IMG/VR virus record: IMGVR_UViG_2778261278_000003
Span: 1 to 16,117 of that record
Direction: 5' to 3' (one strand)
Length of the DNA stretch: 16,117 bases
DNA from: a virus
Lineage: Duplodnaviria > Heunggongvirae > Uroviricota > Caudoviricetes
In this document: piece after piece, positions 3,001 through 6,000 of the stretch
How the letters are laid out: the number at the start of each line of letters is the position of its first letter
How positions within the stretch are numbered: the stretch's first letter is position 1
Made by a program: the position numbers

Positions 3001-6000
3001 AAACGTATGCAAAGCCATGCACCTTATCGATGCATGGCTTTTTTCAGTAAAAACGGGCGGATTTTCGGGGAATTTTACACTGACTGACGTGATGCCAGTT
3101 GCGCACTTTTACGCGAAAAAATCATGTTCTGCGCAGGGGTGAATTTTTCACGGCTGTCATCCACCGAAGCCACGTCAGGCCTGAATCCGATGGTCGTTAA
3201 AATGTCGCTATCCTGTGCGGAATAATTAATTTTTTCACCCTTCGCAAGCCAGGACAGAAGGGCTTCACGCAGGGCATCTGTGGCACGCTGAATGGCACAG
3301 TTTCGGGCAATGACCGTCAGCTCACTGTAGCCCATCAGCTCCGGTGCCAGTGCCGCCGCCAGTGCTGTGCCGTGCTGCTGCATAAAATCATTCAGCCGGT
3401 CGCGGATGCTGATGTGCTGAACGGCTTCATGCGAACGAATATAACGACCGGCGGCCTGATTCACCTGCCATTTTCTGACTTCGATAATATTGCGTAATTC
3501 GTCCAGGCGACTGACGTTTCTGCCTTCTCCTGACAGAAGCCGCAGGTATTCCTGTTCGGCCGCTGCCAGCTCATTTTTGCGTTGCAGCCATGCTGCTTTG
3601 TTATTCTGACAGGTGTCAAAGGCCTGCTGTAAGGCTGTGCTTTCCATCGTTATCTCTTTCTCATCATGCTGAAGAATAAAAATACGGTGTGCGGCGACGG
3701 CCGGTGTTAACCGACAGCCCTCATTCCAGACGCAGCGAATATGATTGTGTTTTTAACCGTACTGGCGGCAGTTCCTGTTTTTCATGCAGGCTTTCTGCCA
3801 GTTCGTCCGGTGTGACCGGGCGGACAATGAAACGGTTGATGGTCTGAAGCGTTTTAAACACCAGACCACAGCCCGGATCCGTGCACACATAAAAACGCTC
3901 GGTGACTTCCTGAGACAGACGCCGCGATGTTCTTGACAGTGCAAGGCCTTTACATCTCCGACAACAATATCCGGTAACAAGCATTCTTTTCGGGCGTTTC
4001 ATACTGCCGGAGGCTGACGTCAGTGAATCGCGATATCTCTGTTTGCCTGAAATGTATTCCATTCCTGAATCTTTACAGTCAGAGAAAAAGCTTTCACTCG
4101 CTTCAAATGTCGCAGAGCAATAAATATTCCGGCACTGTGCAATCATTATCTTGGTGCCATCGTCCATGAAATGTGCGCGACGGGTGTGAGCAACATGTCC
4201 ACACGACGGGCAGTAAATCATGACAGCAGTCCTCTGGCCTTAAGCTCTGCTCCCTGCTGGTCTATTTTGTCCTGCCACACCTTGCGCTGTGCCGGTGTGC
4301 CTGCCACCTCATAATCCATGTGCGGGAGTGTTGCCGCTGACAGTCCGGTCAGCCGGAGAACCGGCTCACCGGTGAGGCTGATTTGCATCTGTTTTATTTT
4401 CTGTTCCAGCGATGATTTCACCTGCTGCATGACAGCTTTATCGGGTGCGACGTAGCCCTGATGGCCGGTGGTGTTGGCGAGCAGATTTTCCTGTACCAGG
4501 ATACTCAGATGCATTGCCCGGACAAGCGCCTCACAGGTTTCATTCAGGGCGTGTTCCAGCTCATGCTCTGCATACAGACTCAGAAGGTGATGATGTGCCT
4601 TCCGGTAGGCGGTGGCCGTGCTGTCACACGCCCCTTTCAGGCGTTCACGTTCGAAATTCAGCACCACGGCCAGATTGTCATATTCCTGTACCAGCTCCCG
4701 GCGTGCCACGCGCTCAATGTGGCGCTGTTTCAGCTCGTCGCTCAGGACACCACCGGCTGCACGAAAGGCCGTGCGCCAGTCGTCAGCGTCGTTTCCGTCG
4801 GCCTGCGCCAGCGCATTTTTTTCCTGCTCTGCCCGTTCAATGGCCGTGACGGTCTCATCCATCAGGCGGGCGTTCTCAAGGTGGGCGGCTCTGGCCTTTT
4901 CCAGTTGTGCCAGTGCGGGTTGCAGATATTCAGGGATGGTGTTGTCAGACATTTTCCGGCTCCTCGTCACTTCAGGTTAAGAAAATTGTGACGTACACCG
5001 GACAACAACACGACGCATTGCAGATGTGCCAGCCCTGACACAGGAAACTCATCCTCAGACCGGCAAGCCAGGAAAAGGTCGCAGGAAAAACCGGCTTACT
5101 GTTTGTTTTTTTATATTTTACTGTTCACCTCTGTTCACCATAAGAAAAAAGATAAGTAATACAGTAAGTTAAAGGGTGAACAATCGCAGTAATGACTGTT
5201 CACCGTCTGTTCACCACTGTTCACCCGTTGATGGGCTTTTTGTGCTGTTTACTACTGTTTGTTTTTATTAATTCGCCGGGAATGAATAAGAAAAAACGAT
5301 TTGTATTTCACTATAAAAATTACGAATTGCTTTAAGTGGCTTTAAATGACTTTAAGTGGAGATGAACAAAAAACACACAAGCATTGTAAGGCTGCCGGAA
5401 CAAATCCCCCCTGTTGCGTCTGCTGAAAATATTCACAAAATAAAGCGCTACCCGAAGCCGGACGGACTTATCCGGTGCTGTATGGACATTAACGAGGTAG
5501 CCCGATGCAAGCTGTTTTTTCTTCCCCGTCTCCCGCCCCTGTGACACCACTGATGCCGCTGCCGGACATCACGCAGGAGCGTTTTTTACGTCTGCCGGAA
5601 GTGATGCACCTGTGCGGCCTGTCACGCTCGACCATCTATGAACTCATCCGTAAGGGGGAATTTCCGCCGCAGGTGAGTCTTGGCGGTAAAAATGTGGCCT
5701 GGCTGCACTCTGAAGTCACCGCATGGATGGCCGGGCGCATCGCCGGACGCAAACGGGGGTACGACGCATGATGATGCCCGCTCTGCAAAAACTCCCTTTT
5801 TCTGGCTTGCCTTTTTCCGGCATTTGCGGATATAGTTTTTCCGCTGTCGCAAAATCGGCAGCCGGGCGTGGAAACCCGTGTAACTCGAAGGCGACATATG
5901 ACGCGCCATGCGTCTTTTTTTGTGTCGCAATCAACGCCACAGAGCGCCAGATTATGGTGTGGTGTGTGGTCAGTCGTGCAGATGGCATTCCGTGCATCCT

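What the first reader, a model, noticed from the sequence alone, without database searches (positions are those of the whole stretch)
4987..5042. Two Delta-type boxes 38 bp apart upstream of sid
P2/P4 late promoters carry a TGT-N12-ACA dyad near -55, and I recall that the P4 promoters have a second Delta site near -18. Both are present with the expected spacing, implying the sid-delta-psu operon is under authentic Delta/Ogr control.
Basis: partly seen in the sequence, partly recalled or inferred. Interest (0 to 1): 0.45.

Follow-up and report, generated by a model that had tools for sequence, protein, structure and literature searches.

The report
Known phage P4 sid late promoter
The two boxes are real, but this stretch matches the long-studied sid late promoter of satellite phage P4 base for base, so it is textbook biology found in about one in five E. 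coli genomes.

Summary
Observation confirmed. Two perfect TGT-N12-ACA dyads lie at 5025-5042 and 4987-5004, 38 bp centre to centre, upstream of sid (ATG at 4952, minus strand).

The window is a P4-type prophage, 98% identical to P4 over 2911-10253. Positions 4953-5045 are identical to P4's Psid region.

If the only plausible -10 (CACAAT, 4990-4985) is used, the start falls at about A4978. The boxes then centre at -55.5 and -17.5. Activator sites annotated in the P2 GenBank record centre at -55.5 to -57.5.

No sigma-70 consensus promoter is present. The operon's delta gene is intact, with two Ogr-type zinc fingers.

It rests on identity to a characterised promoter. The primary footprinting papers were not in the library, so I cite them from memory.

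One nuance emerged from 102 related loci:
- Box I is perfect in all of them.
- Box II is perfect only in the P4-proper clade, whose Delta is a 166-aa tandem protein.
- All 26 diverged satellites have a single-finger Delta of 67-87 aa and TGT-N12-AGA at box II.
- Its left half, TGTTGT, is invariant everywhere.

PLL shows only the -55 box.

The parts
5025..5042 (-). Box I: the upstream activator (Ogr/Delta) dyad, TGTGTCAGGGCTGGCACA. Its centre, 5033.5, is about -55.5 from the inferred start.
   Evidence: Perfect TGT-N12-ACA. Identical to P4. Perfect in all 102 related sid loci examined, with consensus TGTGyCA-N4-TGCCACA. Its left half, TGTGTCAG, is identical to the annotated P2 PO/PP activator site.
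4987..5004 (-). Box II: the promoter-proximal dyad, TGTCCGGTGTACGTCACA. Its centre, 4995.5, is about -17.5. Its ACA half lies inside the -10 hexamer.
   Evidence: Perfect TGT-N12-ACA. Identical to P4. Invariant in 76 P4-proper loci. It reads TGT-N12-AGA in all 26 diverged satellites.
5002..5007 (-). Invariant TGTTGT element at about -29 to -24. It contains the left half-site of box II.
   Evidence: Invariant column block in the 22-sequence alignment of sid upstream regions. Absent at that position in the four P2 late promoters.
4985..4990 (-). Inferred -10 hexamer CACAAT, a 4/6 match to TATAAT.
   Evidence: CA[C/G]AAT is invariant and at a gapless, fixed distance from box I in all relatives. 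No consensus sigma-70 promoter was called. This is an inference, not a mapped element.
4976..4979 (-). Inferred transcription start, best guess A4978, giving a 26-nt leader.
   Evidence: It lies 7 nt downstream of the -10 hexamer and 55.5-57.5 nt from the centre of box I, as at the annotated P2 late promoters. Not measured here.
4960..4965 (-). Shine-Dalgarno sequence GAGGAG of sid.
   Evidence: Read from the sequence. The P4 record X02534 annotates the equivalent bases as a potential Shine-Dalgarno sequence.
4218..4952 (-). sid, the capsid size determination gene (244 aa).
   Evidence: Differs from P4 Sid at 3 positions. Annotated in X51522 and X02534.
3721..4221 (-). delta, the activator gene (166 aa, a tandem of two Ogr-like zinc-finger modules). 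It overlaps the end of sid by 4 nt.
   Evidence: Pfam Ogr_Delta match with two matched stretches. CX2CX22CX4C at residues 4-35 and 87-118, each half aligning to P2 Ogr. Four differences from P4 Delta.
3075..3647 (-). psu, the polarity suppression and capsid decoration gene. It is the last gene of the operon.
   Evidence: Pfam Psu, E = 3e-88. One difference from P4 Psu. No minus-strand promoter-like or terminator-like site between 4960 and 3075.
5385..5402 (+). Third perfect dyad, TGTAAGGCTGCCGGAACA. It is the likely -55 box of the other P4 late promoter, PLL, which drives vis/alpA and the genes beyond.
   Evidence: It lies about 103-120 bp upstream of the vis (ORF88) ATG at 5505. A TCACAA motif similar to that of Psid follows about 40 bp downstream. 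The assignment to PLL is an inference from P4 knowledge.
5060..5088 (-). Conserved upstream block TTTCCTGnGACCTTTnnCTGGCnnGCCGG, at about -110 to -82. Its function was not determined.
   Evidence: Strong column conservation across satellites whose Sid is only 55-66% identical. It contains no TGT-N12-ACA match of 5/6 or better.

Best explanation
This is Psid, the sid late promoter of a P4-type satellite prophage. It is a weak sigma-70 promoter with a -10 of CACAAT and no usable -35, so it is silent unless a small zinc-finger activator is present.

The activator is either Ogr (or a homologue) from an infecting or induced P2-type helper, or the satellite's own Delta. It binds the dyad centred near -55 (box I) and recruits RNA polymerase through the alpha subunit C-terminal domain. 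Transcription then runs through sid, delta and psu. Because delta is in the operon, this creates a positive feedback loop.

Box II lies near -18 and overlaps the spacer and the -10. It is a second operator specific to Delta, and it modulates output once Delta accumulates.

Shown here:
- the sequence elements, their spacing and their conservation;
- identity to P4;
- an intact delta gene;
- absence of a consensus promoter.

Inferred or recalled, not shown here: the transcription start, the binding events, the alpha-CTD contact, and whether box II raises or lowers output.
For: - The window is 98.1% identical to P4. Homology runs from 2911 to 10253.
- The promoter at 4953-5045 is identical to P4.
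- There are two perfect dyads, against a chance expectation of 4.28 per 16 kb.
- No sigma-70 consensus promoter is found in 4900-5560.
- Box I is perfect, and at a gapless fixed distance from CA[C/G]AAT, in all 102 sid loci examined from at least 15 enterobacterial genera.
- The P2 GenBank record annotates activator binding sites and starts whose dyad centres lie at -55.5 to -57.5. This matches box I if +1 is at 4976-4978.
- The left half of box I equals that of the P2 PO site.
- Delta has two intact Ogr-type zinc fingers.
- sid, delta and psu are co-oriented and abut or overlap. No internal minus-strand promoter or terminator motif was found.
- Papers held in the library state that Ogr transactivates P4 and that Delta is an Ogr homologue activating P2 and P4 late genes (PMC7552001; PMC8628076). 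They also state that P2 late promoters carry TGT-N12-ACA (PMC3931495) and that psu-delta-sid share one promoter (PMC13586616).
- From memory, not retrievable here: Julien & Calendar 1995 footprinted Delta at about -55 in all six P2/P4 late promoters and at about -18 in Psid.
Against: - No transcription start, binding or expression data exist for this sequence.
- Box II has weak symmetry beyond TGT/ACA (4 of 7). Its ACA is also part of the -10, so part of its conservation could be due to the promoter itself.
- In all 26 diverged satellites the box reads TGT-N12-AGA. A perfect second box is therefore not a general requirement of sid promoters.
- Variation within P4-proper is too low to show selection on the boxes. 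Thirteen of 150 positions vary. One falls in the N12 of box I and none in box II, where about 3 would be expected in the boxes by chance. This is not significant.
Confidence: 0.9

Rival explanations
1. Box I is the only true activator site. On this reading box II is a by-product: a -10 hexamer that happens to read CACAAT, placed 12 bp from a conserved TGTTGT element. That element would have another job, for example a half-site, a polymerase or spacer contact, or a site for another regulator such as Vis.
For: - TGTTGT is invariant even in the 26 satellites where the other half reads AGA.
- Box II has poor extended symmetry.
- The four P2 late promoters work with a single -55 site and have nothing comparable at -29 to -24.
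- C or G at position 3 of the -10 matches TATAAT equally poorly, so the C could be neutral.
Against: - Two perfect dyads 36-40 bp apart arise anywhere in 16 kb in only 0.5% of simulations.
- Box II is identical in all 76 P4-proper loci.
- The perfect form occurs exactly in the clade whose Delta is a tandem two-finger protein.
- Functional P2 sites also carry one mismatch, so TGT-N12-AGA may still be a site.
- From memory, Delta footprints at -18 on P4 Psid.
Confidence: 0.12
2. The dyads belong to the P4 replication origin or to another DNA-binding protein (alpha, Vis or Cox), not to transcription activation.
For: The P4 record's broad rep_origin feature (9086-9809) formally spans this region.
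Against: - The annotated ori repeats (type 1, TGTTCACC, and type 2) start only at about 5122 and beyond.
- The dyads lack those motifs.
- Box I shares its half-site with annotated P2 activator sites.
Confidence: 0.03
3. sid is driven by an ordinary constitutive promoter, and the dyads are decorative.
For: An early P4 record (X02534) marked a putative '-10 consensus' at the equivalent of 5034-5040.
Against: - No sigma-70-like promoter is found on either strand in 4900-5560.
- That putative element lies inside box I.
- Library papers describe the sid genes as transactivated by Ogr or Delta.
Confidence: 0.02

Closest known systems
Bacteriophage P4 Psid, the sid late promoter (GenBank X51522 / NC_001609, about 9490-9582)
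   Same: Every base from the sid ATG to 4 nt upstream of box I is identical. The downstream operon is the same, and Sid, Delta and Psu are 98-99% identical.
   Different: There is one substitution 4 nt upstream of box I. The window has T5046, whereas P4 and all 74 IMG/VR P4-proper loci have C. The element carrying the promoter has a different integrase and different cargo genes from P4.
Bacteriophage P2 late promoters PP, PO, PV and PF (GenBank AF063097, annotated activator sites and starts)
   Same: A dyad of TGT-N12-ACA type centred 55.5-57.5 bp upstream of the start. The -10 is poor and there is no -35. The left half-site TGTGTCAG is shared with PO.
   Different: The P2 sites match only 5/6 (TGT-N12-CCA or TTG-N12-ACA). 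They have no second box near -18 and no TGTTGT at -29 to -24.
sid promoters of diverged P4-like satellites in Klebsiella, Raoultella, Citrobacter, Enterobacter, Mangrovibacter and others. These are possibly of phiR73 type; that attribution is from memory.
   Same: Box I is perfect, TGTTGT is invariant, the -10 is CA[C/G]AAT, and the spacing is gapless and identical.
   Different: Box II reads TGT-N12-AGA, with a -10 of CAGAAT. Delta is a single-finger protein of 67-87 aa, not a 166-aa tandem. The region equivalent to PLL has no perfect dyad.
P4 PLL late promoter
   Same: One perfect TGT-N12-ACA, at 5385-5402, followed about 40 bp later by a TCACAA motif like that in Psid.
   Different: There is no N12 dyad of 5/6 or better centred near -18. 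The nearest candidates are TGT-N12-AAA at about -27.5 and TGC-N11-ACA.

Membership tests
Ogr/Delta-dependent P2/P4 late promoter | A partial dyad of TGT-N12-ACA type upstream of the core promoter | tested here: met
   A perfect 6/6 dyad at 5025-5042. Annotated P2 sites score 5/6. The consensus is as quoted in PMC3931495.
Ogr/Delta-dependent P2/P4 late promoter | The dyad is centred about 55 bp upstream of the experimentally mapped transcription start | not testable with these tools
   The start is only inferred, at A4978, from the -10-like CACAAT. That gives -55.5. The P2 record's annotated starts give -55.5 to -57.5. Confirming it needs 5'-RACE or dRNA-seq.
Ogr/Delta-dependent P2/P4 late promoter | A weak core promoter: no -35 consensus and a poor -10 | tested here: met
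   The scan of 4900-5560 found no sigma-70-like sites. The best -10 is CACAAT (4/6). The -35 position reads TCGTGT (2/6).
Ogr/Delta-dependent P2/P4 late promoter | A cognate CX2CX22CX4C zinc-finger activator is encoded by the element or its helper | tested here: met
   Delta at 3721-4221 matches Pfam Ogr_Delta in two stretches. The motifs lie at residues 4-35 and 87-118.
Ogr/Delta-dependent P2/P4 late promoter | Transcription depends on the activator and on the RNA polymerase alpha-CTD (rpoA109 sensitivity) | not testable with these tools
   This needs reporter assays. The only basis here is identity to P4 Psid and general statements in PMC7552001 and PMC8628076.
P4 Psid specifically (two-site architecture) | Sequence identity to the characterised P4 promoter | tested here: met
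   Positions 4953-5045 are 100% identical to X51522.
P4 Psid specifically (two-site architecture) | A second dyad about 37-38 bp downstream of the first, overlapping the -10 and spacer | tested here: met
   A perfect dyad at 4987-5004, 38 bp from box I. Its ACA forms positions 2-4 of CACAAT.
P4 Psid specifically (two-site architecture) | Delta protein actually occupies the -18 site | not testable with these tools
   I recall this from Julien & Calendar 1995, which is not held in the library.
P4-like satellite sid promoters in general | The perfect second box is conserved across the family | tested here: not met
   All 26 loci with Sid 55-66% identical carry TGT-N12-AGA. Only the left half, TGTTGT, is invariant. 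The two-perfect-box layout is therefore specific to the P4-proper clade.

The most novel reading that the evidence does not exclude
The perfect -18 box may be a recent innovation of the P4-proper lineage rather than a general feature of satellite sid promoters. It would have arisen together with the duplication and fusion that made Delta a covalent two-finger 'dimer'.

One base, C or G at position 3 of the -10 (minus-strand position 4988), separates the two-site promoters from those with one full site and one imperfect site. This suggests that the fused Delta gained the ability to occupy the core promoter, either for autoregulation or for boosting output. Single-finger Deltas and helper Ogr would act mainly from -55.
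Probability: 0.35. Interest if true: 0.3.

Novelty: already known. Interest (0 to 1): 0.1.

Why it matters
It matters little as a discovery. Psid and its activator sites have been a model for P2/P4 late gene control since the 1980s and 1990s. This exact promoter, at 95% identity or better, occurs in 982 of 5426 complete E. coli genomes.

The practical value is for annotation. It shows that this prophage keeps an intact, helper-responsive sid-delta-psu module, even though it carries a different integrase and different cargo from P4.

The comparative by-product is a modest, testable lead on how the Delta fusion changed promoter use. A perfect box II is seen only with tandem Delta. The diverged satellites have a single-finger Delta and TGT-N12-AGA.

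Tried and rejected
1. Retrieving the primary papers. I tried Reiter 1998 (DOI and PMC107552), Julien & Calendar 1995 (DOI and PMC177091) and Christie & Dokland 2012 (PMC3518693). None is held. Seven full-text searches gave only general statements. The -18 footprint and the mapped start are therefore cited from memory only.

2. Looking for sid lineages of intermediate divergence, to test the link between box II and Delta independently. P0046, P0057 and P0064 (Sid 76-82% identical) turned out to be different. Two (L107, L108) are frameshifted, error-ridden assemblies of P4-proper elements. The third (L109) showed no recognisable sid promoter upstream.

3. Looking for tandem Deltas outside P4-proper. 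Full-length hits were all 98% identical or more, and the rest were fragments. The association therefore rests on two clades, effectively one evolutionary event.

4. Looking for a third dyad in the conserved block at -110 to -82. No match of 5/6 or better was found.

5. Looking for a second N12 dyad at PLL. None of 5/6 or better lies near -18.

6. Testing for depletion of natural variation inside the boxes within P4-proper. There is too little variation, and the result is not significant.

7. Scanning the two cargo ORFs against PADLOC and Pfam. No hits.

8. Considering a divergent plus-strand promoter that would use CTGACA inside box I as a -35. There is no matching -10.

Full report
**What is in the sequence**

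On the minus strand, upstream of the sid ATG (4952-4950), the sequence reads:

...CC TGTGTCAGGGCTGGCACA TCTGCAATGCGTCGTGTTGT TGTCCGGTGTACGTCACA ATTTTCTTAACCTGAAGTGACGAGGAGCCGGAAA ATG

- Two perfect TGT-N12-ACA dyads lie at 5025-5042 (box I) and 4987-5004 (box II).
- They are 38 bp apart centre to centre.
- The finding's coordinates and spacing are exact.

**Is it more than chance?**

- The window holds 10 perfect dyads. Dinucleotide shuffles give 4.28 +/- 1.83, and 1 of 200 shuffles reached 10.
- Three of the ten lie in the two late-promoter regions: boxes I and II, and 5385-5402. The other seven are inside genes or at the window edge and are at the chance level.
- In 3000 Markov simulations, two dyads 36-40 bp apart occurred anywhere in 16 kb in 0.5% of cases. 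That is before requiring them to sit just upstream of sid.

**What the locus is**

- The window is 98.1% identical to satellite phage P4. Homology runs from 2911 (the P4 right cos end) to 10253 (the end of crr).
- Annotation transferred from X51522, X02534 and NC_001609 gives this gene order:
  - psu, 3075-3647 (minus strand)
  - delta, 3721-4221 (minus strand)
  - sid, 4218-4952 (minus strand)
  - ori repeats, about 5122-5235
  - vis/ORF88, 5505-5771 (plus strand)
  - cI/epsilon region
  - alpha, 7566-9908 (plus strand)
- Pfam confirms Psu, Ogr_Delta (two matched stretches), AlpA and a tyrosine integrase.
- Rfam finds the P4 immunity RNA C4 at 6028-6115 and isrK at 5843-5920.
- From 4953 to 5045 the sequence is identical to P4 at every base. 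The only nearby difference is T5046, where P4 has C.
- So the finding is P4's Psid promoter itself.

**Promoter anatomy**

- No sigma-70 consensus promoter is detected on either strand in 4900-5560.
- The only -10 candidate is CACAAT (4990-4985), a 4/6 match. The -35 position reads TCGTGT, a 2/6 match.
- A start 7 nt downstream of the -10 is A4978.
- With that start, box I centres at -55.5 and box II at -17.5.
- The P2 GenBank record gives an independent yardstick, because it annotates activator binding sites and transcription starts for PP, PO, PV and PF. Their best dyads centre at -55.5 (PO, PP) and -57.5 (PV, PF).
- The P2 sites are only 5/6 matches (TGT-N12-CCA or TTG-N12-ACA). 'TGT-N12-ACA' is therefore an idealised consensus. 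PMC3931495 quotes it as such.
- The left half of box I, TGTGTCAG, is identical to that of the PO/PP site.
- Downstream, sid, delta and psu abut or overlap. No minus-strand promoter-like or terminator-like motifs lie between them, which fits a single operon. PMC13586616 also states this, citing Reiter et al. 1998.

**The activator**

- The window's Delta is 166 aa and differs from P4 Delta at four residues.
- It has two CX2CX22CX4C motifs, at residues 4-35 and 87-118. Each half aligns to P2 Ogr.
- Papers in the library state that Ogr transactivates P4, and that Delta is an Ogr homologue activating P2 and P4 late genes (PMC7552001; PMC8628076).
- Three further points come from my memory of papers the library does not hold:
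  - the DNase I footprints of Delta at about -55 in all six late promoters;
  - the second Delta site at about -18 in Psid (Julien & Calendar 1995; Reiter et al. 1998);
  - the requirement for the polymerase alpha-CTD (rpoA109).
- These should be read as established-literature leads, not as results obtained here.

**Comparative test**

I collected sid loci from 22 species-representative genomes and 80 IMG/VR contigs.

- Box I is perfect in every locus that has upstream sequence. Its consensus is TGTGyCA-N4-TGCCACA.
- Box I lies at a gapless, fixed distance from an invariant CA[C/G]AAT.
- Other invariant elements are GCAA, TCG (at the -35 position) and TGTTGT (5007-5002, about -29 to -24).
- Box II behaves differently:
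  - It is identical and perfect in all 76 P4-proper loci (Sid 96% identical or more).
  - In all 26 diverged loci (Sid 55-66% identical) it reads TGT-N12-AGA, because their -10 is CAGAAT.
- The split coincides exactly with Delta architecture. P4-proper elements encode the 166-aa tandem protein. All diverged elements encode a single-finger protein of 67-87 aa.
- A protein search found full-length tandem Deltas only at 98% identity or more.
- Apparent 'intermediate' Sid proteins were not a third lineage. Two were frameshifted P4-proper assemblies, and the third showed no recognisable sid promoter.
- The association is therefore clean but rests on two clades, effectively one event.
- The P2 promoters have nothing resembling TGTTGT at -29 to -24. 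The proximal element is thus specific to sid promoters.

**Mechanism**

Best-supported model:
1. Psid is a Class-I-type activator-dependent promoter.
2. Ogr from a helper, or Delta, binds box I and recruits polymerase.
3. Read-through of delta gives positive feedback.
4. Box II overlaps the spacer and -10. It is a second operator used by the fused Delta to tune output.

Whether box II boosts or limits transcription cannot be decided from sequence.

The main rival is that box II is a by-product of a -10 reading CACAAT next to a conserved TGTTGT element with another role. I give this about 0.12.
- In its favour are the weak extended symmetry of box II and the invariance of TGTTGT where the other half is AGA.
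- Against it are the spacing statistics, the invariance of box II within P4-proper, the co-occurrence with tandem Delta, and the recalled footprint.

- PLL (box at 5385-5402) shows only one perfect dyad. It has no N12 dyad of 5/6 or better near -18.
- The diverged satellites have no perfect dyad in the region equivalent to PLL.
- Natural variation within P4-proper is too sparse to demonstrate selection on the boxes. Thirteen of 150 positions vary, one within the N12 of box I and none in box II.

**Verdict**

- The feature is already known and widespread. It occurs in 982 of 5426 complete E. coli genomes at 95% identity or better.
- Interest is low.
- The only new-looking point is that a perfect box II is confined to the tandem-Delta lineage.

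Noticed in passing
window 1227-1919 and 1886-2785 (minus strand): Two overlapping ORFs of 230 and 299 aa sit between the integrase and cos/psu. 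This is the position of the P4 defence hotspot, which holds gop/beta/cII in P4. They have no DNA homology to P4 and no Pfam or PADLOC hits. They may be an uncharacterised cargo or defence pair.
   Followed up: partly
window 1-1194 (plus strand) and 10254-16117: The integrase (cut by the window start) has no DNA homology to P4 int. P4 homology ends at 10253, right after crr, and the window contains no tRNA gene. This satellite therefore probably uses a different attachment site from P4's leuX. Beyond the boundary lie a 1011-aa AIDA-type autotransporter (10927-13962, minus strand) and a DUF5508 protein (14746-15489, minus strand).
   Followed up: partly
window 5060-5088 (minus strand, about -110 to -82 of Psid): The block TTTCCTGnGACCTTTnnCTGGCnnGCCGG is strongly conserved across satellites whose Sid is only 55-66% identical. 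It has no TGT-N12-ACA-like match. It could bind another regulator, such as Vis or a host factor, or belong to the origin. It remains unexplained.
   Followed up: partly
L004-L024 and L101-L106, downstream of sid; window 3721-4221: All diverged P4-like satellites sampled encode a single-finger Delta of 67-87 aa. The 166-aa tandem Delta was found only in the P4-proper clade, at 98% identity or more.
   Followed up: yes
window 5046: The T here, 4 nt upstream of box I, is a private variant. P4 and all 74 IMG/VR P4-proper loci have C. The best E. coli complete-genome matches are 99.3% identical, that is one mismatch.
   Followed up: partly
window 5330-5360 (plus strand): Three tandem 10-bp repeats, CTTTAAGTGG / CTTTAAATGA / CTTTAAGTGG, lie just upstream of the PLL box. 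They correspond to P4's annotated 'ori type 2 repeats'. They resemble the TTAAAG/CNCA cox-boxes that P2 Cox is reported to bind upstream of PLL (PMC3936717).
   Followed up: no
window 5843-5920 and 6028-6115 (plus strand): Rfam matches isrK (71 bits) and the C4 antisense RNA (77 bits). The latter I take to be the P4 CI immunity RNA. Both are above gathering score, so the immunity region appears intact.
   Followed up: no
L004-L024, 250-750 bp upstream of sid: The region equivalent to PLL in diverged satellites has no perfect TGT-N12-ACA. The single hit, in L009, lies in the ori repeats. Late control of the leftward operon may therefore differ from P4 in those elements.
   Followed up: no
L025 (P2) 3063-3080, 10261-10278, 17561-17578: None of the four annotated P2 late-promoter activator sites is a perfect TGT-N12-ACA. 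Each matches 5/6. The five perfect matches in the P2 genome all lie elsewhere. Exact-pattern scans would therefore miss the real P2 sites.
   Followed up: yes
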